Origin: Candidatus Alcyoniella australis | GTDB lineage: Bacteria > Lernaellota > Lernaellaia > JAVCCG01 > Alcyoniellaceae | NCBI GenBank assembly: GCA_030765605.1 | Contig: JAVCCG010000061.1 | Span: 1-42,415 of the forward strand | Length of the DNA: 42,415 nucleotides | Direction of reading: 5' to 3' | Part shown: piece after piece, positions 2,888 through 38,544 of the stretch | How the letters are laid out: the number at the start of each line of letters is the position of its first letter | Position numbering within the stretch: the stretch's first letter is position 1 | The notes under the pieces: model-generated | What the model saw: the letters and a program-made list of their open reading frames with translations, nothing else | What the model was told of the DNA's origin: nothing | Database searches by the model: none | Position numbers and translations under genes: made by a program

Positions 2888-2903
2888 CCTCGCTCCGCAA
2901 CGC

Positions 2904-2931
2904 TAGCCTGGATCATGAATGATCCAGGCTA
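2904..2931. promoter_or_regulatory. Perfect palindrome TAGCCTGGATCATGAATGATCCAGGCTA (12-bp arms, 2-bp spacer). Member of the recurring intergenic motif family. Candidate operator or hairpin.
   Basis: Read directly from the sequence. AGCCTGGATCAT / ATGATCCAGGCT are exact reverse complements. Located in the 41-nt gap between the SPFH gene stop (2929) and the SGNH gene start (2887). Confidence 0.5.
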
Positions 2932-4077
2932 AAACTTATGGCCGCAGTTGAAGCAGAACTTGGACCCCTTGTCCAACGGCGCGTTGCAGCTCGGGCAGTT
3001 CTCCGGCGGCGCGGTCTCGGCCGGGTCCTGCCCGCTCAAGGGCTTGCCGCAGTTGGGGCAGAACTTGGATCCGCCGGGCACCGGCTGCGAGCACGATGGG
3101 CAATTTTCAGTAAGCGGCTTGCCGCAACTGGGGCAGAACTTGGAGTTGGCCGGGGCCTGGCCCTTGCAGTGCGGGCAGATCACCAGCGGTGCGGCCTGAC
3201 CCTGCGCGCCCTGCTGCATCGCGCCCATCACCATTCCGGGAATCATCATTCCCATTCCAGCTCCCACGCCCAGGCCCATGCCCGCGCCCGCGGTTCCGCC
3301 TTCGCCACCCGCGCCGCCGCCCGTACCCTCGGCAGCCTTCTCCATGGCCTTGGCGGCCTTGAACTGCATGAAGCGGCCCATGTCGCCCACCGCGCCCATG
3401 CCCGCTCGCTCGTCGATCATCTTTTGCACTTCGGCCGGCGGAGTGATCGCGTTGATGAAGAAGTCGAGCAGCTCCAGTCCGTACTTGCTGAAGTCGTCGC
3501 GCAGGCGCGATTTGGAGGCCACGCCCAGCTCGTCGTAGAGCGCGGCGAGGTTGAAGATCGTGTCCACGTTCTCGCCCAAAATATCGTTGAGGCGCGAGAC
3601 GATCACGTCCTTAAGGTAGTTGTCCACATCCAGGCTCGAGTACGCGCCGCGGGTGCCCACCAGATCGTTGATCAGCAGCAGCGGATCAGCGACGCGCATG
3701 GTGTAGGCGCCGAAAGCGCGCAAGCGCACCATGCCCAACTCCGAGTCGCGGAACGGCACCGGCTCCTTGGTGCCCCACTTGAGGTTGGTGTAGACCTTCA
3801 TGTTGATGAAGTAGATTTCGATGCGGAACGGCGACTTGTTGTCGAACGGCACGCCGATCAGCTTGGCCAGCAGCGGCACGTTGAGCGTGCTCAGGGTGTG
3901 GCGTCCCGCTCCCAAGATGTCGAGGGCCTTGCCGTCGCGGAAGAACACAGCGGCCTGATTCTCGCGCACCACCAACTGGCTGCCCACGCGGGTCTCGGCG
4001 CTGCCCGACTCGGGAATGCGGTGGACAATTTCCTCTCCGCTCTCGTCGAAGTACTCGATAACGTCAAGCATCTTCAT
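2929..4077 (-). CDS. SPFH/band-7 (stomatin/prohibitin-like, COG4260-type) protein with four tandem C-terminal zinc-ribbon repeats
   Basis: The N-terminus MKMLDVIEYFDESGEEIVHRIP...VVRENQAAVFFRDGKALDILGAGRHTL is typical of the COG4260 SPFH family. A Gly/Ala/Met-rich linker follows. Then come four repeats of CPxC-x7-SKFCPxCGKPL. AAGGAG sits 10 nt upstream of the ATG at 4077. Confidence 0.75.
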   Translation of the reverse strand: MKMLDVIEYFDESGEEIVHRIPESGSAETRVGSQLVVRENQAAVFFRDGKALDILGAGRHTLSTLNVPLLAKLIGVPFDNKSPFRIEIYFINMKVYTNLKWGTKEPVPFRDSELGMVRLRAFGAYTMRVADPLLLINDLVGTRGAYSSLDVDNYLKDVIVSRLNDILGENVDTIFNLAALYDELGVASKSRLRDDFSKYGLELLDFFINAITPPAEVQKMIDERAGMGAVGDMGRFMQFKAAKAMEKAAEGTGGGAGGEGGTAGAGMGLGVGAGMGMMIPGMVMGAMQQGAQGQAAPLVICPHCKGQAPANSKFCPSCGKPLTENCPSCSQPVPGGSKFCPNCGKPLSGQDPAETAPPENCPSCNAPLDKGSKFCFNCGHKF

Positions 4078-4111
4078 CAGTCAACGTCTCCTTGGAAGAG
4101 TGTGCATCGCA

Positions 4112-4140
4112 GTAGAACCCTCATGAATCATCCAGGCTAG
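4112..4140 (+). repeat. Intergenic motif copy GTAGAACCCTCATGAATCATCCAGGCTAG
   Basis: Seen in the sequence. Overlaps the stop codon (cta at 4137-4139) of the upstream minus-strand gene. Lies 35 nt upstream of the SPFH ATG. Matches the copies at 35435, 4832 and 4677 (inverted) and the palindrome at 2904. Confidence 0.6.
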
Positions 4141-4661
4141 ATCTGGTTGAACGAGTCTTTGCGCAAACCCGCGAACTGTTCGAGCCTGTCGATCGATCCG
4201 TCGAACTCATGGATCCGATTCTTGATCTCCGGGTCGGGCAGATCGGCCTTGGCCCAGGCGTCGGCCTCGAGCACGAGCTGCTCGACCAAGTCGAGGATCT
4301 TGCGGTCGTAATCGTAGAGCGCGGCAAGCTGGGGCTCCTTGATCTTCTGCGGATCAAAGTAGCCCGAATAGCCGTAGGCCGCGAAACGGTGCGTGTCGCG
4401 TACGCGATCGAGCTTGCGCGTCAGCTTGTCCAGCAGGTCGAGCATGCTCAGCTTGCCCGACTCGACACGCTCGGATTTGATGCGCTCCAGCGCGTTCTTG
4501 ACCGCGTTGATGCGGCCCACAGTGTGCTCGCGCAGCAGCTTGTCCGCGTCGCGGAACTTCTCCTTGGCGCGATATCCGCGCAGCACGGGGATCGAGTCGG
4601 CCAACTCCTCGAATTTCTCGGCCCAACCCGTGGCCTGCACCGGACCGCTCGCATCGCTCAT
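4137..4661 (-). CDS. Hypothetical protein, possibly co-transcribed with the downstream SPFH gene
   Basis: Track ORF 4137..4685. The second ATG at 4661 (MSDASGPVQ...) has a GGAGG 5 nt upstream. The first ATG at 4685 lies inside the repeat motif and has no RBS. Predicted helical/coiled-coil. No family was recognised. Confidence 0.5.
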   Translation of the reverse strand: MSDASGPVQATGWAEKFEELADSIPVLRGYRAKEKFRDADKLLREHTVGRINAVKNALERIKSERVESGKLSMLDLLDKLTRKLDRVRDTHRFAAYGYSGYFDPQKIKEPQLAALYDYDRKILDLVEQLVLEADAWAKADLPDPEIKNRIHEFDGSIDRLEQFAGLRKDSFNQI

Positions 4662-4676
4662 CGCCGCCTCCAGACT

Positions 4677-4704
4677 AGCCCGCATTATTCATGAGGCTTC
4701 TACT
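4677..4704 (-). repeat. Intergenic motif copy in inverted orientation. Left arm of a 20-bp perfect inverted repeat.
   Basis: The plus strand reads agcccgcattattcatgaggcttctac. Its reverse complement is GTAGAAGCCTCATGAATAATGCGGGCT. Confidence 0.6.
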
Positions 4705-4831
4705 GCGGCGCACAATCTGCTCTCAACAACAGCGTCATCCTCGCCGATCCGTGCTCGACGTACTGCAGGGAGTACGCCTGCGCAGTATCGGCTCGTCTTC
4801 CTTGTTCTTGCGGCATCTTGCACGCCTCGCT

Positions 4832-4858
4832 ACGAACCCTCATGAATAATGCGGGCTG
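4832..4858 (+). repeat. Intergenic motif copy. Right arm of the 20-bp perfect inverted repeat.
   Basis: ACGAACCCTCATGAATAATGCGGGCT. The 20 nt cctcatgaataatgcgggct (4838-4857) are the exact reverse complement of 4677-4696. Confidence 0.6.
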
Positions 4859-4953
4859 ATTGTGTATATTCGCCAAGCTACCTGCCCCGCCCCACGTTGG
4901 TCAAGGTTCGCGGCGCATAGCCCCTTATCGACAATATGTCCGTGGAGATTAGT

Positions 4954-16733: not shown

Positions 16734-18231
16734 GCTTCCGGCCGGGTTTCCCGGCACGGTCGGTCTAAAATTTAACGAGCCGCTGATCTTCGAGCGCTCG
16801 GTCCCCGGACGTATCGGCCACAGCCTGCCGGCCCTCGACGTTCCGACCGCCAACCCGGCGCTGTACGTCGAGCCCGAGCTGCTGCGCGGCGAGGCTCCGG
16901 CCCTGCCCGAGGTCAGCGAGATTGACGCGGTGCGTCACTTCCACCGCCTCTCGGGCTGGAACTACGCGGTGGACAGCGGGATGTACCCGCTGGGCTCGTG
17001 CACGATGAAGTACAACCCGCGCGTCAACGAGGCGACCTCGCGTCTGCCGGGCCTGGCCCGGCTCCACCCGCTGCAACCGGTCCAGACCGCGCAGGGCGCG
17101 CTATCGCTGATGCACGAACTTTCGTCGATGTTGGCCGAGATCAGCGGCATGCACGCGGTGACGCTGCAGCCCGCGGCCGGAGCCCACGGCGAATTCAGCG
17201 GCCTGTTGATGATCCGCGCCTATCACACCAGCCGCGGCAACCCGCGCAGCAAGGTGTTGATTCCCGATTCGGCCCACGGCACCAATCCGGCCAGCGCCGC
17301 GCTGTGCAACTACAAACCGATCGAGCTCAAGTCCGGCCCCGATGGACTGCTCGACCCGTATACCGTGGCCGCTGCGATGGACGAAGAGGTCGCCGCGCTG
17401 ATGATCACCAACCCCAACACCCTGGGGCTGTTCGAGCGCAACATCCTCGAGATCGCCAAGATCGTCCACGACAAGGGCGGGCTGATCTACTGCGACGGCG
17501 CCAACCTCAACGCCTTGATGGGCGCGGCCAAGCCCGCGCACTTCGGCGCGGATGTGCTGCACTTCAACCTGCACAAGACCTTCAGCACGCCCCACGGCGG
17601 CGGCGGACCGGGTTCGGGCCCGGTGGGCGTGGTCGAGGCGCTCGAGCCGTTCCTGCCCTCGCCCGTGGTCGTCAAGTCCCAGCGCGACGGTGCGGATTAT
17701 TACGAGCTGGATTACGACCGGCCGCAGAGCGTCGGACGGGTCAAAGCGTTTTACGGCAACTTCCTGGTGATGGTCCGCGCCTACACTTACATCCGCGAGC
17801 TCGGCGGCGAGGGCCTGACCCGCTCGACGCAGATGGCGGTGCTCAACGCCAACTACGTCAAGGAACGGCTCAAGGAAGTTTTTAGCGTGGCGCACGACGC
17901 GACCTGCATGCACGAGTGCGTGTTCTCCGAGCAAAGCCTGGTCGAGCACGGCTGCCACACCATGGACCTGGCCAAACGCCTGATCGATTACGGCTATCAT
18001 CCGCCCACGGTCTATTTCCCCTTGATCGTCAAAGGCGCGATCATGATCGAGCCCACCGAGAGCGAGAGCGTCGAGTCGCTGGAGCAGTTCATCGAGGCGA
18101 TGCTGGCGATCCAACGCGAGGCGCAGACCGACCCCGAGTTGCTGCACAGTGCACCGCACTGCACGCGACTGGGTCGCCTCGATGAGGTGCGCGCGGTCAA
18201 GGATCTCGACGTGCGTTGGACCAAACGCTGA
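16708..18231 (+). CDS. gcvPB: Glycine dehydrogenase (decarboxylating) subunit 2 (PLP-binding)
   Basis: LIFERSVPGRIGHSLP...HFNLHKTFSTPHGGGGPG (the PLP-lysine region). ATG at 16708 overlaps the gcvPA stop by 26 nt. Confidence 0.9.
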   Translation: MSKSSTSCELPAGFPGTVGLKFNEPLIFERSVPGRIGHSLPALDVPTANPALYVEPELLRGEAPALPEVSEIDAVRHFHRLSGWNYAVDSGMYPLGSCTMKYNPRVNEATSRLPGLARLHPLQPVQTAQGALSLMHELSSMLAEISGMHAVTLQPAAGAHGEFSGLLMIRAYHTSRGNPRSKVLIPDSAHGTNPASAALCNYKPIELKSGPDGLLDPYTVAAAMDEEVAALMITNPNTLGLFERNILEIAKIVHDKGGLIYCDGANLNALMGAAKPAHFGADVLHFNLHKTFSTPHGGGGPGSGPVGVVEALEPFLPSPVVVKSQRDGADYYELDYDRPQSVGRVKAFYGNFLVMVRAYTYIRELGGEGLTRSTQMAVLNANYVKERLKEVFSVAHDATCMHECVFSEQSLVEHGCHTMDLAKRLIDYGYHPPTVYFPLIVKGAIMIEPTESESVESLEQFIEAMLAIQREAQTDPELLHSAPHCTRLGRLDEVRAVKDLDVRWTKR

Positions 18232-19868
18232 CCGGTTTCGTTTTCACGGCCGAGCACTGGGCCTGCGCCTTGAGCGCATTTATCTGGATCAGCGGCACGA
18301 CCGCGCTGCTCATCACACTGCTTAACAGGACCGACGCGCGCGAACGGCGCTCGGCGTTCTTCGGGCTGCTGCTGATCTGCGCGGCGGCCTACGTCCTGCG
18401 CCTGGCCGTGATCCCGCCCTGGATCTACGAGCCCTCCGGCGACGAGGAGCGGATGATCTTCGGCCCGTTCCTCGGCCAATGGCAGGTGTCCGCGCTGCCG
18501 CAGTCCAGCGGCCTGGCCGCCGACGTCTGGGCCTGGGCCTTTGGCGCGCCGCTACGGATGATGGGGATCGCTGCCGGCCCGCGCACCCTGCCCTGGATCA
18601 ACCAGGTCGCCACCCTGCCCGCCCTGCTGCTGCTGGGCCTGGCCTGCCACCTGATGACCGACCGCCGCTCCATGGCCTGGATCTGCACCGCGGCCGCCGC
18701 CATCAGCCCGCAGCTGATGTTCTGGTCGACCAGCGCCTACGACCTGGCCCCGGCGATCCCGGCCCTGGCGGCCTGGCTGCTGTGCCTGACCGTGCTGCTC
18801 GATCAACGCCGCACCCGGCGGTCGGCGATTCTGGCCGCAATCAGCGCCGCGGGCTGCTGCGTGTGGCTGGTGCTGTGCCGCGTGGAGCTGTGGCTGCCGG
18901 TCTGCGCGCTCCCCGCGACCCTGATCCTCGCCGCATTATTCATCCGCGAACAGCGGGCCCGCCGTTTGGCCGCGGCCGCGCTGTGCATCGTCTGTCTGGC
19001 GCTGGCCGTGCTGCTGCTCTCCTCAGCCACCGAGGCACGCACCGGGACCAAGGTCTTTGCCCTGGATCAGCTGCTGCTCAATTTCGACGCCAGCCGCTGG
19101 CTCAACTCGCCCTTTGGCGGCCTGGTCCCGCTGTTCCTGTCGGCCGCGGGCTATTTGGGCATCCGCAAGCTCGGGCCGTTCCCGGTCCGTTCGGCGCTGA
19201 TCGCCTCCTCGGTCGCGGGGTTGGCCCTGTGGGCGGTCTGCCTGGCGTACGACGGCTTTGCCTCCAAGTACGCGGTCTGGACCGTGCTGCTGCTCGCGCC
19301 GCTGTGGTCCGTGGCCATGTCCTGGCCCGCGCAGATCGCGCAACGCAAGGTCCCGGCCGTCGCGCTGACGCTGCTGATCGTCACCCTTGTGGCCCTGCCG
19401 CCGCTGTTGCGCTGGGGTAGCGACGTGCGCGTCACGGCCGACTCGTTCCACGGCCATGTGCATACCAGCGACATGCTCGAAATCCCGCAGGAAGTGTTGC
19501 TCAAGCAGCTCGAGGGACAGTTGGTCTTTGCCTCGCCCGGGCTGCACGACCCCCTGCGCGAGGCCGGACTGCTTGCTGACGGGATGCTGTTCGAGGCGAT
19601 GCAGCTGGTGGGGCCGCGCCGCCTGGAGCCCGAGCGCTTGCTGCGCATCGGCGAAGAGGGGAACGCCCTGCGGCTGGTCGCGCCCTACGATCACAAGCTG
19701 ACCGCCATCGGCTGGTACGACCGGCTCTACCGCGAGCGCGCACTGTTTAACATGCGGCCCGTGGCCCGCGGCGAGCTGCTGGGGCAGCCGGTGCTGCTCT
19801 ATCGACTGGAGCTGCGCCCCGGCGCGCGCCGGGCCCTGAGCTACTCGCGGTTTAAAATCGAGATCTAG
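18216..19868 (+). CDS. Polytopic membrane protein (hypothetical). The start overlaps the gcvPB stop.
   Basis: About ten hydrophobic helices plus a C-terminal soluble region. No family was recognised. The start is uncertain. Confidence 0.4.
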   Translation: MDQTLTGFVFTAEHWACALSAFIWISGTTALLITLLNRTDARERRSAFFGLLLICAAAYVLRLAVIPPWIYEPSGDEERMIFGPFLGQWQVSALPQSSGLAADVWAWAFGAPLRMMGIAAGPRTLPWINQVATLPALLLLGLACHLMTDRRSMAWICTAAAAISPQLMFWSTSAYDLAPAIPALAAWLLCLTVLLDQRRTRRSAILAAISAAGCCVWLVLCRVELWLPVCALPATLILAALFIREQRARRLAAAALCIVCLALAVLLLSSATEARTGTKVFALDQLLLNFDASRWLNSPFGGLVPLFLSAAGYLGIRKLGPFPVRSALIASSVAGLALWAVCLAYDGFASKYAVWTVLLLAPLWSVAMSWPAQIAQRKVPAVALTLLIVTLVALPPLLRWGSDVRVTADSFHGHVHTSDMLEIPQEVLLKQLEGQLVFASPGLHDPLREAGLLADGMLFEAMQLVGPRRLEPERLLRIGEEGNALRLVAPYDHKLTAIGWYDRLYRERALFNMRPVARGELLGQPVLLYRLELRPGARRALSYSRFKIEI

Positions 19869-19941: not shown

Positions 19942-22900
19942 CTAGCCGCAACAACCTGAGTCGTCGTCATCGTCGCCGTCCGAGGCGTCGTCGTCGTCAT
20001 CGTCGCCGGGTAAATCCGATACCGCGTTGGAGATGCGGCTTAAGTTCCCCTCATCGTCAGCGACACGCAGTGCCACGTGCAGCACGCCGGGGTCGGGCAC
20101 GATAAAGCTCTCGATTGATCCCGGCGGCTGAGGCGCTGCTCCGAACTCAAAGGCCTCTGCCGCGGCAAACTGTTCGACCTGCTCCAGATCGGCCGCGGGA
20201 TCGCGCGAGATGCGCACGTCATAGGACTGTGCCTGACCGCAGGTCCAATCATCTCCCGGCGCGGTGAAGGTCAGCTTGAGCCGCCTATCGCCGAGCCGTT
20301 CGAGCTGCAAGTCGGTGACGCGCGCGGGCGGCAGCGCGTCCAGGCCGTAGTATCCGCTGTTGTGCGGATCGTGGTGAAAGCGCGGCCAGTCGGCGTTCTG
20401 CTCGCCGTCAATGCAGGACGCGGCCCCGGTCTCCCAGGCGTAGAGCCAGCCCTCGTAGGTCGGCAGCAGCACCTCGAGCAGGCCATCGGCGTCGATGTCC
20501 GCGATCGCAGCGCTGCCCGTGATCCATTTCTGCGTGTACTTGGGCCAGCCCGGCGGCTGGATGCCGTCCACCGAGAACGCGTGCGCCAGGTAGCCGCTGG
20601 TCCCCAGCACCAGCTCGCGCGTGCCGTCCGCGTTGAGGTCGGCCGCGGCCGGGCTGTTGAACATCGGAAGGTCCTCCAGCTCCTCGATCAGCAGCCGCTC
20701 GTGGGGCGGGTCAACGTCGTTGGCCGCCAGCTTGGAGTTGATCAGGTTGAACCCCTCCTCGCCGATCTGCAGCACGGACAGCAGCGGGATCGAGTATTGC
20801 AGCCAGCCGTCGTTGTACAGCGAGGTGAACGCGCCGTGGGCGATGGAGGTCAGGCTGAGGCCGGTGGGCATGTACATCTCGTGGATCTTTTCGCCCGAGT
20901 AGTGCATCACCGCCGGGAACCAGCCCGGCGTGCCCAGGCCGATCCAGGCCTCGCCGTTGCCCAAGGCGATCACCGGCGAGGAGACGCCGCCCGCTGCGAA
21001 CGGCAGCGGGATCGCATCGCCCAGGGGCGCTGCGGGCGCGGCCGGCCAGTCGGGCAGAAACGTTCCCGCGGGATTGGCCCAGCCGTCGTGGTAGATCGCG
21101 TAGGCGCGGGTGGTGGCCAGCAGCCCCTCCTCGCAAATCTCGGTGGTCGCCACCACCACGGACGGATATTCGGACACGTCCGGATTCGCGTTCAGCGGAT
21201 CGAGCACACCCGCCGCCGGCGTGCTGCAAATCTGAGACGGCAGGCCGCTCCCCTCGCAGATCCGCTCGTCGCGCACGATCCCCTCGTCGCTGCGGCAGAG
21301 CACGGGCCAGCCGTAGAGCGGGTCGACCTGGCCGTTACCGTCCTGGTCCAGCGGCTTCCAAGCGTAGGCCTTCTGGTCGTTGGACGCGACCACGATCTCG
21401 AGCACGCCGTCGAGGTCGAGGTCAACGAGCACCGGCGAGCCGTAGACGCCGTTACCATGGCCAAAGGCGAGCGAGCTGGAGTTGTCCGGCGCATCGGTCT
21501 GCACCGGAAACCCGGGCAGGATCGGCGAGGGCTGGTGCAGGTTGCCGTCAGCGTGAATTGCAAACACCCGGCCCAGGGCCGTGGCGGCCACGATCTCGGG
21601 CTCGCCGTCGCCGAACAGATCGCCGATGGCCACCGAGCCGATGATCCCGTCGCTGCGCCATTGGTCGTAGCTCGAGAGGTCCACGGGGAAGCCCGCAAGC
21701 TCGGACCAGCCGGAGCCGTCAACGTCGCGGGTCAGAACGTGGACCAGGCCGTCGCCCGTGCCCATCACGATCTCGGGCAGGCCGTCGGCCGCGCCGTCGA
21801 GGTCGTAGACAATGGGCGAGAACCCGGGGGAGGCGCCGAAGTAGTACGGGAAGCCGGCGGCCAGGCCGTTCACCGGATCGTCGTCCACGTGGACCGAGAT
21901 CGACTTGCGCGCCTCGCCGCGCACCTGTTCGTCGATCCCGGCCTCGTACCACGCGCGCACGCGCAGCGAGACCTCGAAATCGTAGCGCGACTGGGGCACT
22001 CCGCGCATCTGGTCGGGCGGAAAGAGTTGGGCGATGGGCACCTGGGCAATCAGGCCCTCGATCCGCTCGTCGGACGTGCCCTGGAACACGGTCTGGTACT
22101 CATTGTCCAGCGGCTGCTTGCCGCGGGCCAGCTGCACCTCGTAGGAGAACGGATAGACCCGGGCGTCGATCTCGCCCTCGAGCTCGAAGGTCGCGCTCGC
22201 CGCGGTATCGAAGGTCTCCCACCAGCGCGGATAGGTGATGCGCACCTCGGGCGGAATGCGCGGCTCGATCCCGCGTTGCTCGTCGCCGAGCATCAGCAGC
22301 GCACGCTCGAGGTCCGGCCGGCCGTAGCCGAAGTGCTCGTCCCAGCCGGGCTGGCAGACGTTGAGCAGCGAGGCCACGGATGCGCAGTGGCTCTCGATAT
22401 CGTCCGCCGACTGGATCAGCAGCTGGAACAGCTCACCCGCGCTGAGCTCGATCCCCTGCTCCAACGCGTAGCTCTTGATCAGGGCCATGGCGCCGGTGGT
22501 GGTGCCCGTAGCGTCGGAGGTGCAGGCGGTGTCGGCGGGCACTGCCACGTGGGCGTGGGTGCCGAAGTTGGTGCAATAGGTCTCGACAAAGCCGAACGAT
22601 CCGAGGTTGAAGATCCCCACCAGGTCCACCGGGATGATCGGGAACAGCGCAGTGACCGCCACCACGTCCTCCATCGCGGCCGGAGCCCAATGGTGCATGC
22701 TCATCTCGTCGCCCTGGGGTGCGGCGATCAGCACCCCGGCGTCGTAGGCCTCCATCACCGCCCGATGCGCTTGGTCCGAATAGTTCAGGGCCACGCCGGA
22801 ATGGTTGATCACGTCCGCGCCCATCGACACCGCGTAACGCACGCCCGCGGCGAACAGGTCGTAGTTGTAGATCACCGCGTCGCCAACCCGCACCTGCATC

Positions 22901-23910
22901 ACGCGGCAGTCGGGGCAGACTCCGGGCCGATTGCCGATGCCGTTGTTGCCGCGCGCCGCGGCCAGCTCGCACATCCCGTGGCCGTGGGCCCCCTCGGGGA
23001 AGTCGTCGACCCCGAGCACCTCGTTGGTGTTGCGGAAGAAGTCCCAGCCGCTGATGTCGTCGACCAAGCCGTTTTTATCGTCGTCAACGCCGTCGGAGAA
23101 CTCGGCCAGTAGATCGCCGACGTTGATCGCGCGGTCCAGCGGCTCCACGCGCGGATCGTCGGCATAGTCGTCCACGTCAAAGCGGCCGTCGCCGTTGCAG
23201 TCGTAGTCCGCGCAGACGCCCGACGCGGTCTGCGGCAGGGGCAGCTCGCCGGAGTTGATGAACAGCGCGATGCGCAGGTCCTCGTCCTCGTAATGCTTAA
23301 GTCCGTCGTCGACCACCGCCACCAGCACATCGGGGCTGCCGGTGCTGTACTTCCAGGCGCCGGTGACGTTGATCCCCGGAATCATCCACGGCCCCTCGAC
23401 AGCAGACTCGGGCTCGATCGGGTTGAAGCCCATCAGCACGCTGGTCTCGGTGAACATTGCGAACGGATCGCCCGGATCGTAGATCGGGATCTCGAAGTCG
23501 TTGGGGATGTTGCACACGAACAATGCGCCGAAGGGGTACGCGCCGTCGAATGGATCGCCGGACGCGGAGTGCAGAGCGTTGCCCACGTGCAGCTCGATCC
23601 GCTCGCCCCAGGGCCAGGCCGCACTCGGCGTGAAGACCACTGTGTCGTTGGCGTGCACAATGCTGCTTAGTACCAGCGAGCCGGCCAGGTGCGCATCATC
23701 GCCACCCAGCGCAACGAAGAACGTCGAATCGCCCAGCGTGGCCCCTTCCAGGGAGTCGGAGAAGCGTACTGACAGCGGCGTGTCGCCCTGAACCAGCTTG
23801 CTCTGGAAGGTCGGAAACTGATCGACAATCGACAGCGCCGCGGCGCCCGAGGCGGCCAGCGCGATCGAACACAGCGCGACGAAAAGAACGGCAATCGTAC
23901 GTGACGTCAT
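19942..23910 (-). CDS. Large secreted protein (1322 aa): S8 subtilase-like peptidase domain plus FG-GAP/integrin-alpha-like beta-propeller repeats. Acidic C-terminal tail ending SGCCG.
   Basis: Signal peptide MTSRTIAVLFVALCSIALAASGAAA from the ATG at 23910. Subtilase D/H/S blocks: VAVVDDGL, HGHGMCELAAARGNNGIGNRPGVCP, ACTSDATGTTTGAMALIKS (aligns to GTSMASPHVAG). Repeated D-x-D/N-x-DG-x-x-E motifs (DLDLDGVLEIVV, DLNADGTRELVL, DIDADGLLEVLL) are FG-GAP-like. The C-terminus is DLPGDDDDDDASDGDDDDDSGCCG. Confidence 0.7.
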   Translation of the reverse strand: MTSRTIAVLFVALCSIALAASGAAALSIVDQFPTFQSKLVQGDTPLSVRFSDSLEGATLGDSTFFVALGGDDAHLAGSLVLSSIVHANDTVVFTPSAAWPWGERIELHVGNALHSASGDPFDGAYPFGALFVCNIPNDFEIPIYDPGDPFAMFTETSVLMGFNPIEPESAVEGPWMIPGINVTGAWKYSTGSPDVLVAVVDDGLKHYEDEDLRIALFINSGELPLPQTASGVCADYDCNGDGRFDVDDYADDPRVEPLDRAINVGDLLAEFSDGVDDDKNGLVDDISGWDFFRNTNEVLGVDDFPEGAHGHGMCELAAARGNNGIGNRPGVCPDCRVMQVRVGDAVIYNYDLFAAGVRYAVSMGADVINHSGVALNYSDQAHRAVMEAYDAGVLIAAPQGDEMSMHHWAPAAMEDVVAVTALFPIIPVDLVGIFNLGSFGFVETYCTNFGTHAHVAVPADTACTSDATGTTTGAMALIKSYALEQGIELSAGELFQLLIQSADDIESHCASVASLLNVCQPGWDEHFGYGRPDLERALLMLGDEQRGIEPRIPPEVRITYPRWWETFDTAASATFELEGEIDARVYPFSYEVQLARGKQPLDNEYQTVFQGTSDERIEGLIAQVPIAQLFPPDQMRGVPQSRYDFEVSLRVRAWYEAGIDEQVRGEARKSISVHVDDDPVNGLAAGFPYYFGASPGFSPIVYDLDGAADGLPEIVMGTGDGLVHVLTRDVDGSGWSELAGFPVDLSSYDQWRSDGIIGSVAIGDLFGDGEPEIVAATALGRVFAIHADGNLHQPSPILPGFPVQTDAPDNSSSLAFGHGNGVYGSPVLVDLDLDGVLEIVVASNDQKAYAWKPLDQDGNGQVDPLYGWPVLCRSDEGIVRDERICEGSGLPSQICSTPAAGVLDPLNANPDVSEYPSVVVATTEICEEGLLATTRAYAIYHDGWANPAGTFLPDWPAAPAAPLGDAIPLPFAAGGVSSPVIALGNGEAWIGLGTPGWFPAVMHYSGEKIHEMYMPTGLSLTSIAHGAFTSLYNDGWLQYSIPLLSVLQIGEEGFNLINSKLAANDVDPPHERLLIEELEDLPMFNSPAAADLNADGTRELVLGTSGYLAHAFSVDGIQPPGWPKYTQKWITGSAAIADIDADGLLEVLLPTYEGWLYAWETGAASCIDGEQNADWPRFHHDPHNSGYYGLDALPPARVTDLQLERLGDRRLKLTFTAPGDDWTCGQAQSYDVRISRDPAADLEQVEQFAAAEAFEFGAAPQPPGSIESFIVPDPGVLHVALRVADDEGNLSRISNAVSDLPGDDDDDDASDGDDDDDSGCCG

Positions 23911-24052
23911 CGTGAGCACTCCGGTCGTAATGTGGCAGGCGAGCCTATCCAAGCGGCATTTAGCCTGGATTATTTATCAAGTTTCGTCAAATATTGCGGT
24001 AGCTGAATTTGACCGCTGAACAAATCGGGAATCCACGATATGATTTAAGATC

Positions 24053-33494: not shown

Positions 33495-35399
33495 ATGTTG
33501 GCGTTTCGCGAAAAGCACCTGTGGCTGCTGCTGCTGGCGGCGTTGTCGTTATTGGCCCTGGTCGCGGCCGGCTGTTCGGTCGGCGACGACGACGACGACG
33601 ATGACGACGATGACGACGATGATTTCGAGCTTGACGGCAATATCGTCGCGCCGCAGATCGACCCCACGGACTGCCTGACCGACGACGCCAAAGAGGCGGT
33701 CGAACTGGCGCCGGCCTGGCTGCGCACCGAGATGATCCTCAACCTGTGCGCTTTAGCGGACGATAAGCAGGACCTGGCCGCCGAGCTGGTGCTGGGCTAT
33801 ACCGACCCCAAATACATCGACGAGCTGGCGTTTTTAGCGGCCCACGTGGGCAAGACCGACTGGAACTACCCTTCCCTGGACATCGACCTGTTCTACGACA
33901 ACGTCGTGTCGGTCTACGCCGCGGACGAGCAGCTGGACTACGTGACCCTGATCGACGAGGGCGATCCGCTGACCGACGACGACTTCTTCACCACGGCCGA
34001 ATACAGTTCCTTTGACAGCTCGGGCAAGGCCCAGACCGTGCGCGTGGATCCCTATTACTACTACTGGTTCGTGGTCCATCCGCGGCTGGAGGACGAGGGC
34101 CCGCGCTACATCGACCCCGAAACCGGCGGCAGCGCCGATCCGCCCGACGGCGTGTTCTGGCGCGACTACCTGCTCAACCACTCCGACGATCTGTGCCCGG
34201 GCACAATCGACAATCAGACCGATTTCGAGGATCCGGAAAAGACTACCTGGGTGAGCTGCTCGGTGCTCGCCGATCTGCTCGCGGGCGTGGACACGGTCTG
34301 GGAGGGAACTGACGAAACAATCGACAATGGTGCCATTGGCTTAATCAGCTACTGGATCGACGAGGCGATGTGGTTCTTCAGCTATACTCGCCGGCCGGTG
34401 CAGCCCGTGGCGATCTACTCGGGCCATGTGGGGCGTTGCGGCGAGCACGCCGACCTGACCTCCGCCGCCACGCGCGCGGCGCTGATCCCCGCGGCCAACA
34501 TCGCCTCCTATGCCAACGACCACACCTGGAACGAGTTCTACGACTTCCTCTGGGTGCAGTACGAGCCGGTCAACGACATGGTTAACGCACCCAACGCCTA
34601 CGACACCTGGGGCAACGGCACCAAGGGCGCGTACCGCACGCGCGGCGACGGCTTCGCCGAGAACGCCACGTCGCTGTACACCACAACCGGCACCCTCGAG
34701 ATCACCGTGGTCGACTCCGCAGGCAACCCGGTGGACGAAGCGGTGGTGATCGCCAGCGGCAAATATGGCGGAAGGCAGATGGACCACACCATGAGCGTCA
34801 CCGACCAGAGCGGCTTCACCAGCTTCGAGGTCGGCGACGAGAACTACGTCTACCTCGAGGTCCGCTCGCCGCTGGCCAATTTCCCCGCCGAGCAGGTGAT
34901 CAAGAAGCGCATCAATGCCGGCCAAACCTATGAGGGCCAAATCGAGCTTGATGCCGAGCTTAAGACCCTGGACATCGCGCAGCCCGAGGACTACCAGGGC
35001 GCGGGCGTGGTCACGCTCGAGGTCGGCCTGATCGACGCGGTGCGTTACGTGCGCAACCAGGGGATCGTCGGCACCAATATCTTCACTCAGTCCTACGACG
35101 ACGTGCTGCTGCCGCTGTACATGGTCGACGCGCAGAACTACGCCCTCTACCAGGACGGCGAGCAGTTCGTTGCCCACGCCCTGACCTTTGATGCCAACGG
35201 CGAGGCGCAGTTCGACCTGCCCCACGGCGGCGACTGGATGCTGTTCGTGAGCAACTACTCGGGCGTGAGCAACTACATCACCGGCGCGTTGGCAGTGCAG
35301 ATCGTCAACGCCGCCACCGACGAGGTATTCGACTCGGCGCAGGTCGAGCTGTTCCTCGAGCCGGGCGATCTGGCGCTGTTTGAATTAAACGGATTGTAG
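33495..35399 (+). CDS. Lipoprotein: transglutaminase-like cysteine-protease core domain, with a 13-Asp linker after the lipobox
   Basis: The N-terminus MLAFREKHLWLLLLAALSLLALVAAGCSVG is followed by DDDDDDDDDDDDD. Transglutaminase-like core: GRCGEHADLTSAATRAALIPAANIASYANDHTWNEFY (a Cys...His...Asp/Asn arrangement). C-terminal Ig-like / CarboxypepD_reg-like beta domain (TGTLEITVVDSAGNPVDEAVV). Confidence 0.6.
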   Translation: MLAFREKHLWLLLLAALSLLALVAAGCSVGDDDDDDDDDDDDDFELDGNIVAPQIDPTDCLTDDAKEAVELAPAWLRTEMILNLCALADDKQDLAAELVLGYTDPKYIDELAFLAAHVGKTDWNYPSLDIDLFYDNVVSVYAADEQLDYVTLIDEGDPLTDDDFFTTAEYSSFDSSGKAQTVRVDPYYYYWFVVHPRLEDEGPRYIDPETGGSADPPDGVFWRDYLLNHSDDLCPGTIDNQTDFEDPEKTTWVSCSVLADLLAGVDTVWEGTDETIDNGAIGLISYWIDEAMWFFSYTRRPVQPVAIYSGHVGRCGEHADLTSAATRAALIPAANIASYANDHTWNEFYDFLWVQYEPVNDMVNAPNAYDTWGNGTKGAYRTRGDGFAENATSLYTTTGTLEITVVDSAGNPVDEAVVIASGKYGGRQMDHTMSVTDQSGFTSFEVGDENYVYLEVRSPLANFPAEQVIKKRINAGQTYEGQIELDAELKTLDIAQPEDYQGAGVVTLEVGLIDAVRYVRNQGIVGTNIFTQSYDDVLLPLYMVDAQNYALYQDGEQFVAHALTFDANGEAQFDLPHGGDWMLFVSNYSGVSNYITGALAVQIVNAATDEVFDSAQVELFLEPGDLALFELNGL

Positions 35400-35434
35400 C
35401 GCCAAGGTTATCCTCTTTCTTGAGCGCCTCGCTG

Positions 35435-35463
35435 ACGAACCCTCATGATTAATCCAGGCTAGT
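35435..35463 (+). repeat. Intergenic motif copy GACGAACCCTCATGATTAATCCAGGCTAG, ending 3 nt before the ATG at 35466
   Basis: Seen in the sequence. A 25/27 match to the copy at 4112-4140. Confidence 0.6.
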
Positions 35464-35465
35464 CG

Positions 35466-38345
35466 ATGCATCGTATCGCCTGCTCCTTGTTACTGATCGT
35501 GCTGCTCGTGCTCGGGCTGTGCCTGCCCTCTCTGGCCTACGACTCGCGCCTTGTTTGGCGCACGTTGGAGACCGAACACTTCTACGTACACTTCCACGAT
35601 GGCGAGCGCGAGCTGGCGCTGCGTGCCGCAATCCTCGCCGAACAGGTCTTCGACATGCTCTCCGAGCAGCTTGATTGGCAGCCTTGGGGCAAGGTCCAGC
35701 TGGTAATCGCCGACGACTCGGACCGCGCCAACGGCTGGGCGAGCACCATTCCCTACAACACCGTGCGGCTCTATGCCACGGCCCCGACCTCGGATCAGCG
35801 CATCGACGAATACGGGGATTGGTTCCACGGCCTGCTGATGCACGAGATGACCCACGTGCTGCACATCGACCAGGCGCGCGGATTCAACCGGCTGTTCCGC
35901 GCGATCTTCGGCCGGGTCTACGCGGTCAACGGCATCCACCCGATTTTGCAGATCGAGGGGCTGGCCGTGCTCAAGGAGACCAGCAACACCGAGCACGGCC
36001 GCGGTCGCTCGAGCCTGACCCAGATGTATCTGCGCGCAGCGATTCTCGAGGACCGCTTCCCGAGCATCGATCAGTCCACCACGTTCTTTCTGCGCTGGCC
36101 GGGCTCGGCCGTGCCCTACCTGTTCGGCGGCGCGTTCCACGTCTACGTGGCGGACAACTACGGTGAGAATTGCTGGACGCAGATCTCGAAACGCCACTCG
36201 CGCCAAGTCTGGCCGTTTCTCTACAACAGCAACGCCGAGCGCGTAATCGGCAAGAGCCTGGTCACCCTTTGGCGCGAATGGCAGACCGTGCTGCGCTCGC
36301 GCTTTGAGCGCCAGGCCGCACAGATTCGCTCCCAGGGCCTGTACCGGGGCGAGCGCGTGACGTTCAGCGGCTACCAGACGCGCAAACCGACATTCGCCGG
36401 GCCGCGCAGCCTCTACTTTCAGCAGCGCACACCGCGCCGTAAGAACCGGATCATGCTGCTCGACCTTCAGACCAGTCGTACGAGCAAGGTGGCCCTGATC
36501 GATGGCCCGGGGGGCATGGACGCCCTGGGCAACGATCTGCTGGTCTATTCCGACGACCGCGTGTATCAGATCGACTACCTGTTCAAGGACCTGTTCCTGA
36601 TCGACCGACGGCCGCGTAGCGAACGGATCACCAGCGGCAAACGCCAACGGCTGACGCGCGGCGCGCGCCTGCTCGACCCGGCGTTCTTCAGCGACGGCAA
36701 ACGCGTGCTGGCCGTGCAGAACCGCCTGCAGTCCAAAGACCTGGTGATCTACGACCTGGAGACGCGGAGCATCGAACGCGTTAGCGACCTAAGCCCCGAG
36801 CTGGTGCAGTTCGATCGGCCCGACGTGCACACCGATGGCCGCCGCGCGGCAGTGGCCGCGTGGCACGAGCGCGGCGAACGCGACATCTATCTCTACGACT
36901 TAGAGGACCACGTTTTCACGCGACTGACATCGCATCCGGCTAAGGAGATCGACCCGCAGTTCACGCCCGACGGCGAGTTGCTGTTGTTCAGCTCGGACCG
37001 CAGCGGCGTGTACAACATCTACGCCCTGGACCTGCCTAAGCAACGGCTGTTTCAATTGACCAACGTGCTCGGCGGCGCGTTCTGGCCCAGCGTCAGCTCG
37101 GATGGCGAGCTGCTGGCCTACACCGGCTACACTGCCGACGGGTTCGACGTGTTCGTGCTCGAGCTCGACAAAGCCTGGTGGCGCGAGGTGCCCTACGAGC
37201 CGCCCGCGCCCAGCGGGCCGCCGCGCAACGGCAACCCTATCGATCTCCAGGCCGCGGCCGAGCAGTTCCCCGAGCATAAATACAGCCCGTGGCGCACGAT
37301 CTGGCCGCGCTATTGGCTGCCCGAGCTTGGCACCACGGCCGATGAAACACTGTTCGGCATCACCACCTCGGGCCGCGACGTGCTGCAGTACCACTCCTAT
37401 TCGGCCACCGCGCTCTACGGGCCGCAGAGCGAATTCCTCAGCTACTGGCTGAGCTACGCCAACCGCCAGCTGTGGCCGACGATCAGGCTCAACCAGGCGG
37501 CCTTCGCCGACTCCTACGGCAAGCTGATCCGGCTGCCCGACGGGCGCCGCCGCCAGTACTTCGAGCGCCGGATAACCGGCAGCGTAGGGGCCTACGCGCC
37601 GATCGTCGAGCACCTCGTGGCGGGCGCGAGCTATCGCATTCAACAGCGCGACAACATCACACGCATCCCCTCCGACGCGATCAACCCACCCAATACCGGG
37701 CTGTTCTCCGGCCTGGCGCTGAGCCTGAGTTTCAACAACACGCAGAGCTACGGCCGCTCGATCAGCCCCGAGCGCGGCGTGGATTTGGGACTGGGCTTCA
37801 ACTGGTGGGCCGATTGGCTGGGCTCGGATTACGACCTGCGAATCATCAGCGCCTCGGCCCGCGCCTACCAGGGGCTGTGGCTCAATCACGCCTTGGCCCT
37901 GCGATTGGTCGGCGGACTGGCCCAAGGCGACGTGCTGCGCCAACGCACTTTCCGCCTCGGCGGGTTCGGCGGCAGCGGCGCATTTGCCGTGCCTTCCGAG
38001 GGCAGCTACTTTATGCGCGGGTTCGGCGCATCGCAGTTCAAGGGTCAGCGCATCGTCGCGGGTTCGGTTGAATACCGGCTGCCGATCTGGTGGATCGACC
38101 GCGGCATCAGCACCTGGCCGATCTACTTCAAGGTCTTGCACGCCAACCTGTTCTACGACACCGGCCAAAGCTTTGATCGCCTGGACTTCAAGCCGCGCGA
38201 CCTGCACCAAGGCCTGGGCGCGGAAATCAAGCTCGATACGCGCTTGGCCTACGGCATGGCGGTCAACTTCCGTTTCGCCCTGGCACAGGGATTGGGCGAT
38301 GAGGGCGACCTGCGCTACATGTACTACCTGGGCGGCCTTTTCTAG
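35466..38345 (+). CDS. Putative outer-membrane protein (959 aa): HEXXH metallopeptidase-like N-domain, TolB-like (PD40/WD40-like) beta-propeller region, C-terminal beta-barrel ending in Phe
   Basis: Signal peptide MHRIACSLLLIVLLVLGLCLPSLA. Zinc motif LLMHEMTHVLHI, with a downstream Glu in QIEGLAV. PD40-like repeats (FSSDRSGVYNIYALDL, SSDGELLAYTGY). The C-terminus, with alternating aromatic strands ending YMYYLGGLF, looks like an outer-membrane barrel (inference). Confidence 0.55.
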   Translation: MHRIACSLLLIVLLVLGLCLPSLAYDSRLVWRTLETEHFYVHFHDGERELALRAAILAEQVFDMLSEQLDWQPWGKVQLVIADDSDRANGWASTIPYNTVRLYATAPTSDQRIDEYGDWFHGLLMHEMTHVLHIDQARGFNRLFRAIFGRVYAVNGIHPILQIEGLAVLKETSNTEHGRGRSSLTQMYLRAAILEDRFPSIDQSTTFFLRWPGSAVPYLFGGAFHVYVADNYGENCWTQISKRHSRQVWPFLYNSNAERVIGKSLVTLWREWQTVLRSRFERQAAQIRSQGLYRGERVTFSGYQTRKPTFAGPRSLYFQQRTPRRKNRIMLLDLQTSRTSKVALIDGPGGMDALGNDLLVYSDDRVYQIDYLFKDLFLIDRRPRSERITSGKRQRLTRGARLLDPAFFSDGKRVLAVQNRLQSKDLVIYDLETRSIERVSDLSPELVQFDRPDVHTDGRRAAVAAWHERGERDIYLYDLEDHVFTRLTSHPAKEIDPQFTPDGELLLFSSDRSGVYNIYALDLPKQRLFQLTNVLGGAFWPSVSSDGELLAYTGYTADGFDVFVLELDKAWWREVPYEPPAPSGPPRNGNPIDLQAAAEQFPEHKYSPWRTIWPRYWLPELGTTADETLFGITTSGRDVLQYHSYSATALYGPQSEFLSYWLSYANRQLWPTIRLNQAAFADSYGKLIRLPDGRRRQYFERRITGSVGAYAPIVEHLVAGASYRIQQRDNITRIPSDAINPPNTGLFSGLALSLSFNNTQSYGRSISPERGVDLGLGFNWWADWLGSDYDLRIISASARAYQGLWLNHALALRLVGGLAQGDVLRQRTFRLGGFGGSGAFAVPSEGSYFMRGFGASQFKGQRIVAGSVEYRLPIWWIDRGISTWPIYFKVLHANLFYDTGQSFDRLDFKPRDLHQGLGAEIKLDTRLAYGMAVNFRFALAQGLGDEGDLRYMYYLGGLF

Positions 38346-38389: not shown

Positions 38390-38464
38390 TGGTGCCCCAG
38401 GGAGGGATCGAACCTCCGCACCCGGCTCCGGAGGCCGATGCTCTATCCACTGAGCTACTGGGGC
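38390..38464 (-). tRNA. tRNA-Arg (anticodon CCG)
   Basis: The reverse complement gives GCCCCAGTAGCTCAGTGGATAGAGCATCGGCCTCCGGAGCCGG...GGTTCGATCCCTCCCTGGGGCACCA. The cloverleaf folds by hand. The anticodon loop is CTCCGGA. CCA is encoded. Confidence 0.85.
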
Positions 38465-38468
38465 ATGA

Positions 38469-38544
38469 TGGTGGACGGTAGCGGACTCGAACCGCCGGCC
38501 TCTGCCTTGCGAAAGCAGCGCTCTTCCAACTGAGCTAACCGCCC
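38469..38544 (-). tRNA. tRNA-Ala (anticodon CGC)
   Basis: The reverse complement gives GGGCGGTTAGCTCAGTTGGAAGAGCGCTGCTTTCGCAAGGCAG...GGTTCGAGTCCGCTACCGTCCACCA. The G3:U70 wobble is the Ala identity element. The anticodon loop is TTCGCAA. CCA is encoded. Only 4 nt separate it from tRNA-Arg. Confidence 0.85.

What the first reader, a model, noticed from the sequence alone, without database searches (positions are those of the whole stretch)
35435..35463. Distant copy of the motif abutting the start codon of the OM metallopeptidase/TolB-like gene
GACGAACCCTCATGATTAATCCAGGCTAG ends 3 nt before the ATG at 35466. It lies 36 nt after the stop of the transglutaminase-like lipoprotein gene. This is about 31 kb from the cluster of copies at 2.9-4.9 kb. 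The separation implies a dispersed element, not a local duplication. With this spacing no conventional Shine-Dalgarno is available for the downstream gene, so the motif region may itself act in translation initiation or its regulation.
Basis: seen in the sequence. Interest (0 to 1): 0.6.

Follow-up and report, generated by a model that had tools for sequence, protein, structure and literature searches.

The report
Leftover end of an IS1380-family transposon
The 29-base motif in front of the outer-membrane protein gene is the terminal inverted repeat of a non-autonomous IS1380-family insertion sequence that landed in a CTAG site 3 bases before the start codon; it is an ordinary transposon remnant, not a dedicated translation signal.

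Summary
The motif is real. It sits at 35434-35462, one base left of the stated coordinates, and it is far beyond chance. It is the outer end of a mobile element: an 18-bp terminal inverted repeat (35441-35458, CCTCATGATTAATCCAGG), the 4-bp target copy CTAG (35459-35462), and about 24 bp of subterminal sequence (35417-35440).

The same repeat occurs in more than 120 stretches of DNA from about a dozen phyla. It mostly forms inverted pairs, 56 of 88-452 bp (MITE-sized) and 6 of 1456-1686 bp. All six long ones encode an IS1380-family transposase. The named element ISAzs3 has the same kind of end and the same CTAG flanks.

The window is a contig of Candidatus Alcyoniella australis. It carries one complete 186-bp MITE (4675-4860), three solo or degenerate ends (4097-4140, 23960-23990, 35417-35462) and a 22-bp micro-palindrome flanked by CTAG/CTAA (2903-2932). 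It encodes no transposase.

The element is dispersed, ATG 35466 is the true start, and no strong Shine-Dalgarno precedes it. Nothing supports a dedicated role in translation. The transposon end simply became the gene's leader. Interest is low: a new member of a known kind.

The parts
35441..35458 (+). Terminal inverted repeat proper (CCTCATGATTAATCCAGG), read from the interior outwards. The element's outermost bases are the terminal GG (CC on the other strand).
   Evidence: It matches the core pattern exactly. It has one mismatch to the 22-nt consensus. It aligns with the ends of transposase-bearing IS1380 elements and of ISAzs3.
35459..35462 (.). CTAG, the right-hand copy of the 4-bp target site. 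Its TAG closes the reading frame one codon before ATG 35466.
   Evidence: 125 of 187 ends in other genomes are followed by CTAG. Inverted pairs carry direct 4-bp repeats. It is one of only 10 CTAG sites in the window.
35417..35440 (+). Subterminal sequence of the 'End A' type (TCTTGAGCGCCTCGCTGACGAACC), homologous to the inner side of the right end of the complete MITE.
   Evidence: Local alignment of 35417-35460 with 4815-4857, 43 nt with one gap. The same subterminal sequence occurs in metagenome MITEs L122 and L123.
35466..38345 (+). Downstream gene of 959 aa, a secreted protein with PD40/Tricorn-like and Omp85-like regions. The start codon lies 3 nt after the CTAG.
   Evidence: Pfam hits to PD40 and Omp85, the latter below its cutoff. 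It is identical to an NCBI protein of Ca. Alcyoniella australis with the same start. The N-terminal signal peptide and WRTLETEHF block are conserved in homologues.
33495..35399 (+). Upstream co-directional gene (transglutaminase-like, 634 aa). Its stop codon lies 17 nt before the transposon-derived sequence begins.
   Evidence: Pfam Transglut_core. No terminator-like site lies between the two genes.
4675..4860 (.). Complete non-autonomous element (MITE). Layout: CTAG 4675-4678, left repeat 4679-4696, interior, right repeat 4838-4855, then CTGA.
   Evidence: Inverted pair of exact core matches. It folds into one long hairpin of -83.3 kcal/mol, z = -6.65. Relatives with the same two end types and a similar interior are in L122 and L123.
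4097..4140 (+). Solo end of the 'End B' type plus CTAG. The CTAG contains the stop codon of the minus-strand ORF 4137-4661. It lies upstream of the SPFH/zinc-ribbon gene, in the reverse orientation.
   Evidence: 84% complementary over 44 nt to 4675-4718 (I3). Aligned.
2903..2932 (.). Micro-element: CTAG, then the 22-bp near-palindrome CCTGGATCATGAATGATCCAGG, then CTAA. Only the outer parts of two facing repeats remain.
   Evidence: Sequence read. Both arms are found (2903-2924 minus, 2911-2932 plus).
23960..23990 (-). Degenerate solo end (GACGAAACTTGATAAATAATCCAGGCTAA), about 50 nt upstream of the probable ATG (23909) of the large subtilase-like gene.
   Evidence: Found (3 mismatches; 4 mismatches). 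Sequence read.

Best explanation
The motif is one end of a non-autonomous derivative of an IS1380-family insertion sequence.

Proposed mechanism, partly shown and partly inferred:
- An IS1380-type DDE transposase, encoded elsewhere, binds the roughly 18-bp terminal inverted repeat CCYGSATTATTCATGAGG.
- It inserts the element into the tetranucleotide CTAG and duplicates those 4 bp.
- One such insertion hit a CTAG that lay 3 nt upstream of ATG 35466.

Only the right end survives there: the repeat, about 24 bp of subterminal sequence and the right CTAG. It is therefore a solo end, presumably left by an internal deletion.

Shown:
- The repeat family, and its pairing around transposase genes and MITEs in other genomes.
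- The CTAG flanks and the direct duplications.
- The absence of a partner repeat and of a transposase in this window.

Inferred:
- That the copies moved in trans.
- That the left half was deleted.
- That the downstream gene is now transcribed by read-through from the upstream gene and translated from a transposon-derived leader with only a weak AGG 7 nt before the ATG.
For: 1. Distribution. The hosts include Nitrospirota, Planctomycetota, Acidobacteriota, Myxococcota, Cyanobacteria, Chloroflexota, Armatimonadota, and Alpha- and Gammaproteobacteria. Many copies lie 30-125 nt from contig ends, as expected of a multicopy repeat that breaks assemblies.

2. Pairing. The copies form 62 inverted pairs with the CTAG ends facing outwards. 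56 pairs are 88-452 bp long and 6 are 1456-1686 bp long.

3. Transposase. All six long pairs encode IS1380-family transposases.
- L063 and L120 match NF033539 at 377 and 400 bits (cutoff 180) and PF13701.
- L085 is identical to L063.
- L010 and L074 score 341 and 397 bits.
- L048 is a frameshifted fragment.

4. A named relative. ISAzs3 has CTAG|CCGGGAAAATTCATGAGGG at its left end and GGCGG|CTAG at its right end.

5. Target duplication. CTAG is on both sides in 32 of 62 pairs. Non-palindromic flanks repeat directly (TTAG/TTAG three times, CTAA/CTAA twice) and never in the inverted form.

6. Window copies. There is a complete 186-bp MITE that folds as a hairpin (z = -6.65). The finding's copy aligns over 43 nt with that MITE's right end.

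7. CTAG scarcity. The window has only 10 CTAG sites, against 141 expected from base composition. Four of the 10 flank these repeats.

8. No significant transposase similarity in the window (tblastn best E = 0.48).
Against: - No transposase-bearing copy has been shown in this organism, because only this one contig could be examined.
- The copy at 35441 has no detectable left partner. Its origin by insertion followed by deletion is therefore inferred, and no empty-site allele was seen.
- Three of the six ends point outwards towards a nearby start codon (35466, 4661, 23909). This leaves room for a secondary effect on expression.
Confidence: 0.9

Rival explanations
1. The transposon end has been co-opted as a working leader. 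It would supply an outward promoter, a weak ribosome-binding site (AGG 7 nt before the ATG), or a 5-codon upstream ORF (ATG ATT AAT CCA GGC TAG) that ends 3 nt before, and in frame with, ATG 35466. In this reading the motif does act in initiation.
For: - The start at 35466 is well supported and the nearest strong SD is absent. If the gene is expressed, the ribosome must load on transposon-derived sequence.
- Other genes in the window also start after AT-rich, SD-less leaders, for example 24053 and 41502.
- Two IS1380-family members, ISEcp1 and ISPme1, are reported to carry strong outward promoters (PMC9330008).
- Three of the six ends face a nearby start codon.
Against: - No sigma-70-type promoter is detected in or around any copy.
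- Anti-SD pairing is only -2.5 kcal/mol.
- The upstream ORF has no SD of its own.
- The local RNA fold is no more stable than shuffled sequence (z = -0.98).
- The same sequence also sits antisense to genes and after stop codons (4119+, 2903-2932).
- Nearness to gene ends is expected anyway. Several of the remaining CTAG sites checked (19865, 19942, 38342) overlap TAG stop codons.
Confidence: 0.1
2. The motif is the operator or promoter element of a host regulon, that is, a binding site for a transcription factor or an alternative sigma factor shared by the flanking genes.
For: It is AT-rich in a genome of about 63% GC and partly palindromic (TCATGA core). It lies in intergenic DNA, and some copies are close to start codons.
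Against: - The identical 18-20 bp occurs in about a dozen phyla. There it bounds transposase genes and short non-coding hairpin elements with 4-bp direct duplications, and it sits at contig ends.
- Neighbouring gene functions are unrelated: SPFH, GDSL lipase, subtilase and an Omp85-like protein.
- Orientation and distance to the genes are not constant.
Confidence: 0.03
3. The motif is a REP/BIME-type extragenic palindrome mobilised by a RAYT (IS200/IS605-like) transposase, or else a structured small RNA.
For: It is a dispersed intergenic repeat found in both orientations, sometimes as inverted pairs, and the complete copy folds into a hairpin.
Against: - A single unit is not an imperfect palindrome.
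- Pairs carry 4-bp direct target duplications, and the long versions encode a DDE IS1380 transposase, not a Y1 transposase.
- No Rfam family reaches its gathering score here.
- The interiors of the pairs are not conserved between phyla.
Confidence: 0.02

Closest known systems
IS1380-family insertion sequences, in particular ISAzs3/ISAzs25 of Azospirillum sp. B510 (about 54-56% transposase identity to the full-length relative in L120)
   Same: The terminal repeat starts with CC and contains ATTCATGAGG. CTAG flanks both ends. There is a single transposase of about 450 aa matching NF033539 and PF13701. Total length is 1.45-1.7 kb.
   Different: The window copies carry no transposase. The copy in the finding keeps only one end. 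No autonomous partner has yet been shown in Ca. Alcyoniella.
Bacterial MITEs (miniature inverted-repeat transposable elements) and their solo-end remnants
   Same: The element at 4675-4860 is short (186 bp) and non-coding. It has terminal inverted repeats and a flanking target duplication, forms a strong hairpin, and has many relatives.
   Different: I found no paper in the searchable library that describes MITEs derived from IS1380-family elements or that contains this repeat sequence. The copy at 35441 fails the two-repeat criterion and is only a fragment.
ISEcp1 / ISPme1 (IS1380 family), known for outward promoters and one-ended transposition giving transposable modules
   Same: Same family. 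The start of the ISEcp1 repeat (CCTAGATTC..., recalled from memory and not tested here) resembles CCTGGATTA. Insertion directly upstream of a gene is the classic setting in which these elements alter expression (PMC9330008; PMC3281130).
   Different: Those promoters lie inside full-length elements. Here only about 45 bp remain and no promoter-like site is detected.
piggyBac transposons of eukaryotes
   Same: IS1380 transposases serve as the prokaryotic outgroup of piggyBac transposases (PMC10813416). Both insert into a palindromic tetranucleotide that is duplicated (TTAA for piggyBac, CTAG here). Both have repeats that begin with CC; for piggyBac this is from memory.
   Different: The host domain, the target sequence and the transposase size all differ. 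This is an analogy, not membership.

Membership tests
IS1380-family insertion sequence (as a non-autonomous derivative) | Terminal inverted repeats of about 15-20 bp whose outermost bases are CC | tested here: met
   The repeat CCYGSATTATTCATGAGG is conserved over about 18 bp, and conservation drops sharply beyond it. It is shared with transposase-bearing elements and ISAzs3.
IS1380-family insertion sequence (as a non-autonomous derivative) | Full-length elements bounded by the same repeat encode an IS1380-type DDE transposase | tested here: met
   L063, L085, L120, L010 and L074 match NF033539 at 341-400 bits (cutoff 180). L048 is a frameshifted fragment at 142 bits.
IS1380-family insertion sequence (as a non-autonomous derivative) | 4-5 bp direct duplication of the target | tested here: met
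   32 of 62 pairs have CTAG on both sides. Five pairs have identical non-palindromic flanks (TTAG/TTAG, CTAA/CTAA) and none has the inverted form. For the solo copy at 35441 only the right CTAG exists, so the duplication cannot be checked at that site.
IS1380-family insertion sequence (as a non-autonomous derivative) | A transposase gene within the element itself (autonomy) | tested here: not met
   tblastn of two IS1380 transposases against the window gives nothing better than E = 0.48. The window copies are therefore non-autonomous.
MITE | A short non-coding element with two terminal inverted repeats, a target duplication and hairpin potential | tested here: met
   Met for 4675-4860. NOT met for the finding's own copy: no partner repeat is detectable upstream of 35441 (best p = 0.18). 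That copy is a solo end.
Shine-Dalgarno ribosome-binding site | A purine-rich stretch pairing with the 16S 3' end, 5-10 nt before the start | tested here: not met
   The best pairing is -2.5 kcal/mol (the AGG within CCAGG). Other genes of the window, such as 4661, 31861 and 38682, reach -7 to -9.5. The 16S rRNA sequence of this organism was not available, so a generic anti-SD was used.
Sigma-70-type promoter | -35 and -10 hexamers with a 16-18 nt spacing | tested here: not met
   No site in 35250-35600 or in 2800-5000. Other promoter types are not covered by the scan.
Known structured RNA (Rfam) | A match to a curated covariance model at its gathering score | tested here: not met
   Only two tRNAs in the whole window reach the threshold.

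The most novel reading that the evidence does not exclude
The solo IS1380 end may have been domesticated as the leader of the Omp85/TolB-like gene. This leader would be SD-less, AT-rich and transposon-derived, and might carry an outward promoter. It contains a 5-codon mini-ORF (MINPG) that stops 3 nt before the real start and in the same frame, which could allow termination-reinitiation. More generally, elements of this family close all three reading frames when read outwards (TAA, TAG and TGA within 22 nt). They target CTAG, which in this CTAG-depleted genome often overlaps TAG stop codons. They might therefore act as portable gene-boundary modules.
Probability: 0.08. Interest if true: 0.45.

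Novelty: new member of a known kind. Interest (0 to 1): 0.2.

Why it matters
The main value is for annotation.
- These short repeats in a little-studied phylum (Candidatus Lernaellota) are IS1380-family MITEs and solo ends. They should not be read as regulatory motifs.
- They explain why copies abut stop codons. The element targets CTAG, a tetranucleotide that is about 14-fold depleted here. Several of the unoccupied CTAG sites overlap TAG stops.
- The cross-phylum conservation of one 18-bp repeat, and the abundance of MITE-sized derivatives, may interest people who curate insertion-sequence databases.
- For the downstream gene, the insertion shows that an essential-looking secreted protein tolerates a transposon-derived, SD-poor leader. 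That is a small, testable case of how insertions reshape initiation regions.

Tried and rejected
- Rfam scan of the whole window: only two tRNAs.
- Sigma-70 promoter and terminator scans around all copies: no promoter, no terminator between the two genes.
- Search for a degenerate partner repeat upstream of 35441, left of 4119 and beside 23962, by local alignment against shuffles. Nothing was significant. One nominal hit (p = 0.007 among 12 tests) lies inside the SPFH coding region and was discounted.
- By eye, TTTGAATTAAAC at the 3' end of the upstream ORF resembles the repeat (8 of 10), but it did not pass the shuffle test.
- Exact-sequence look-up of the 959-aa protein in the assembly index: not on record.
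- Orthologous intergenic comparison was impossible, because the nearest homologue is only 34% identical.
- Synteny check of three homologues: no transglutaminase-like neighbour. Two of them overlap their upstream gene by 4 nt, which says nothing firm about the state before insertion.
- Literature search for the repeat sequence itself and for IS1380 together with CTAG or MITE: no paper describes this repeat or IS1380-derived MITEs.
- An IS630/Tc1 reading (a TA duplication with a longer repeat) was considered first. It was dropped when the full-length copies proved to encode IS1380 transposases and non-palindromic 4-bp direct repeats were found.
- A chimeric-assembly origin of the solo end was rejected. 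The left boundary of homology abuts unique host sequence, not transposon interior.

Full report
**Observation.** The 29-mer GACGAACCCTCATGATTAATCCAGGCTAG occurs once in the window, at 35434-35462 on the + strand. That is one base to the left of the stated coordinates. It is followed by TCG and then the ATG at 35466. It starts 34 nt after the stop codon of ORF 33495-35399.

A degenerate core, CCTCATGAWTNATSCRGGCT, has six copies with up to 3 mismatches. They start at 2911+, 4119+, 4677-, 4838+, 23962- and 35441+. Shuffled sequence gives 0.04. With the 22-nt consensus that includes CTAG there are seven ends and essentially none by chance.

**Anatomy in the window.** The copies at 4677(-) and 4838(+) form an inverted pair whose CTAG-side ends face outwards. 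Together they delimit a 186-bp element, 4675-4860. It folds as one long hairpin of -83.3 kcal/mol, z = -6.65 against shuffles.

The two ends of this element differ in their subterminal sequence:
- "End A" reads ...TCTTGCACGCCTCGCTACGAACC before the repeat.
- "End B" reads ...AGATTGTGCGCCGCAGTAGAAGC before the repeat.

The finding's copy aligns with End A over 43 nt, 35417-35460. The copy at 4097-4140 aligns with End B over 44 nt. The sequence at 2903-2932 is CTAG, then a 22-bp near-palindrome made of the outer parts of two facing repeats, then CTAA. I found no partner repeat upstream of 35441. That copy is therefore a solo end, not a complete element.

**Evidence from other genomes.** They come from Nitrospirota, Planctomycetota, Acidobacteriota, Myxococcota, Cyanobacteria, Chloroflexota, Armatimonadota, Alpha- and Gammaproteobacteria and others. 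Many matches lie 30-125 nt from a true contig end, which is typical of a multicopy repeat that breaks assemblies.

Allowing a few mismatches, the copies form 62 inverted pairs with the same outward geometry. 56 pairs are 88-452 bp long and 6 are 1456-1686 bp long.

All six long pairs encode an IS1380-family transposase:
- L063 and L120 match NF033539 at 377 and 400 bits (cutoff 180) and Pfam PF13701.
- L085 is a second copy of the L063 element.
- L010 and L074 score 341 and 397 bits.
- L048 is a frameshifted remnant.

The closest annotated relatives of the L120 transposase are ISAzs3 and ISAzs25 of Azospirillum sp. B510, at about 54-56% identity. ISAzs3 has CTAG|CCGGGAAAATTCATGAGGG at one end and ...GGCGG|CTAG at the other. 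An alignment of the window ends with these elements shows the shared repeat and the CTAG.

**Repeat length and target.** Among 187 ends, conservation is high over about 18 bp (CCTCATGAATAATSCRGG, read outwards) and falls off on both sides. The next four bases are CTAG in 125 ends and CTAA in 24.

In the pairs, CTAG is on both sides in 32 of 62. The informative non-palindromic cases are direct repeats (TTAG/TTAG three times, CTAA/CTAA twice) and never the inverted form. So the four bases are a target duplication, not part of the repeat. This fits what is reported for the family. IS1247, for example, is 1672 bp long with 16-bp repeats and a 5-bp duplication (PMC3281130). That the family's repeat ends with CC is my recollection of the ISfinder description.

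**Source organism.** The 959-aa product is identical to an NCBI protein of Candidatus Alcyoniella australis on a 42,415-bp contig, so the window is that whole contig. The species belongs to the phylum Candidatus Lernaellota. The contig encodes no IS1380 transposase, so all its copies are non-autonomous. A metagenome scan with the End A subterminal sequence found four more members. Two of them are complete MITEs with End A at one side, End B at the other and a similar hairpin interior (L122, L123). The window's MITE therefore belongs to a wider family.

**Why the copies abut gene ends.** CTAG is very rare in this contig. There are 10 sites, against 141 expected from base composition and 53 from a Markov estimate. 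Four of the ten flank the repeats. Three of the rest (19865, 19942, 38342) overlap the TAG stop codons of ORFs 18216-19868, 19942-23952 and 35466-38345.

An element that needs CTAG can therefore land almost only at gene boundaries. This explains why the stop codons of ORFs 4137-4661 and 2929-4077 are part of the CTAG or CTAA next to a repeat. Read outwards, the repeat plus CTAG closes all three reading frames: TAA, TAG and TGA within 22 nt, read directly from the sequence. That is why the frame of the 959-aa gene is closed one codon before its ATG.

**The downstream gene and its start.** No in-frame start is possible upstream of 35466. Starts further downstream would cut into a normal signal peptide (MHRIACSLLLIVLLVLGLCLPSLA). 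Twenty-four homologues place a signal peptide of similar length directly before the conserved WRTLETEHF..HFH block, and one of them even begins MHRIA.

The best pairing to a generic anti-SD is -2.5 kcal/mol, from the AGG of the repeat 7 nt before the ATG. Many genes of the contig have GGAGG-type sites at -7 to -9.5. A few other genes also lack one and have AT-rich leaders (24053, 41502).

Other checks around the start:
- No sigma-70-type promoter and no terminator is detected between the two genes.
- The local RNA fold is unremarkable, z = -0.98.

**Most likely history (inference).** An End A-bearing element inserted into a CTAG 3 nt before the ATG. Its left part was later lost. The gene is now transcribed by read-through from the transglutaminase-like gene and translated from a weak, transposon-derived leader.

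**Rivals.**
- Co-option of the end as a promoter or initiation element cannot be excluded. ISEcp1 and ISPme1 of this family carry strong outward promoters (PMC9330008). Three of the six ends point at nearby starts. A 5-codon mini-ORF in the repeat stops 3 nt before the ATG, in frame. Nothing measured here supports it, however, and the other copies sit antisense to genes or after stop codons.
- A host operator or regulon motif is contradicted by the cross-phylum pairing around transposases, by the direct target duplications and by the non-conserved interiors.
- A REP/RAYT element or a small RNA is contradicted on the same grounds, and no Rfam family matches.

**Comparison with known systems and novelty.** The element works like, and belongs to, the IS1380 family as a non-autonomous derivative. 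The closest named relatives are ISAzs3 and ISAzs25. IS1380 transposases are the prokaryotic outgroup of piggyBac (PMC10813416). The duplicated palindromic tetranucleotide target is a pleasing parallel with piggyBac's TTAA.

I found no paper in the searchable library that describes IS1380-derived MITEs or this repeat sequence. The family of short derivatives may therefore be unnamed. In kind it is ordinary, and I rate it a new member of a known kind with low interest.

Noticed in passing
window 4675-4860: A complete 186-bp non-autonomous IS1380-type element (MITE). It has two distinguishable ends (A and B) and a very stable hairpin (z = -6.65). Its left CTAG lies 13 nt upstream of the probable ATG (4661) of a 174-aa ORF that has a GGAGG site.
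   Followed up: yes
window 4097-4140 and 4675-4718: Two End B copies form a 44-nt inverted repeat (84% complementary). Their outer ends face each other across the 174-aa ORF 4137-4661, which has no Pfam match. This arrangement could allow inversion of the gene by recombination.
   Followed up: partly
window 2903-2932: A 22-bp near-palindrome (CCTGGATCATGAATGATCCAGG) flanked by CTAG and CTAA. It looks like a MITE reduced to the tips of its two repeats. It lies between the stop of the SPFH/zinc-ribbon gene and the start of the GDSL-lipase gene.
   Followed up: partly
whole window: CTAG is strongly depleted: 10 sites against 141 expected from base composition. Four of them flank transposon ends, and three others (19865, 19942, 38342) overlap TAG stop codons.
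   Followed up: partly
window 35377-35399: Four of the last six sense codons of the transglutaminase-like ORF end in A or T (TTT GAA TTA AAC GGA TTG TAG), although 88% of the gene's third positions are G or C. The native 3' end may have been replaced. A resemblance to the repeat was not significant.
   Followed up: partly
window 439-510, 6714-6838, 8414-8514, 19953-20008, 33578-33648: Runs of GAC/GAT (or the complement) in several large ORFs encode poly-aspartate stretches. They dominate the repeat finder's output.
   Followed up: no
window 38390-38544 (- strand): tRNA-Arg(CCG) and tRNA-Ala(CGC) lie side by side, convergent with the 959-aa gene and starting 45 nt after its stop.
   Followed up: no
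L013 118-157 (Planctomycetota MAG): The right end of one element and the left end of the next share a single CTAG (…CCCGGG|CTAG|CCCGGATCATTCATGAGG…). This means one element inserted into the target copy of another.
   Followed up: no
L127 and L128 (homologues of the 959-aa gene): In two distant homologues the gene overlaps its unrelated upstream gene by 4 nt. There is no conserved neighbour across the three contexts examined.
   Followed up: partly
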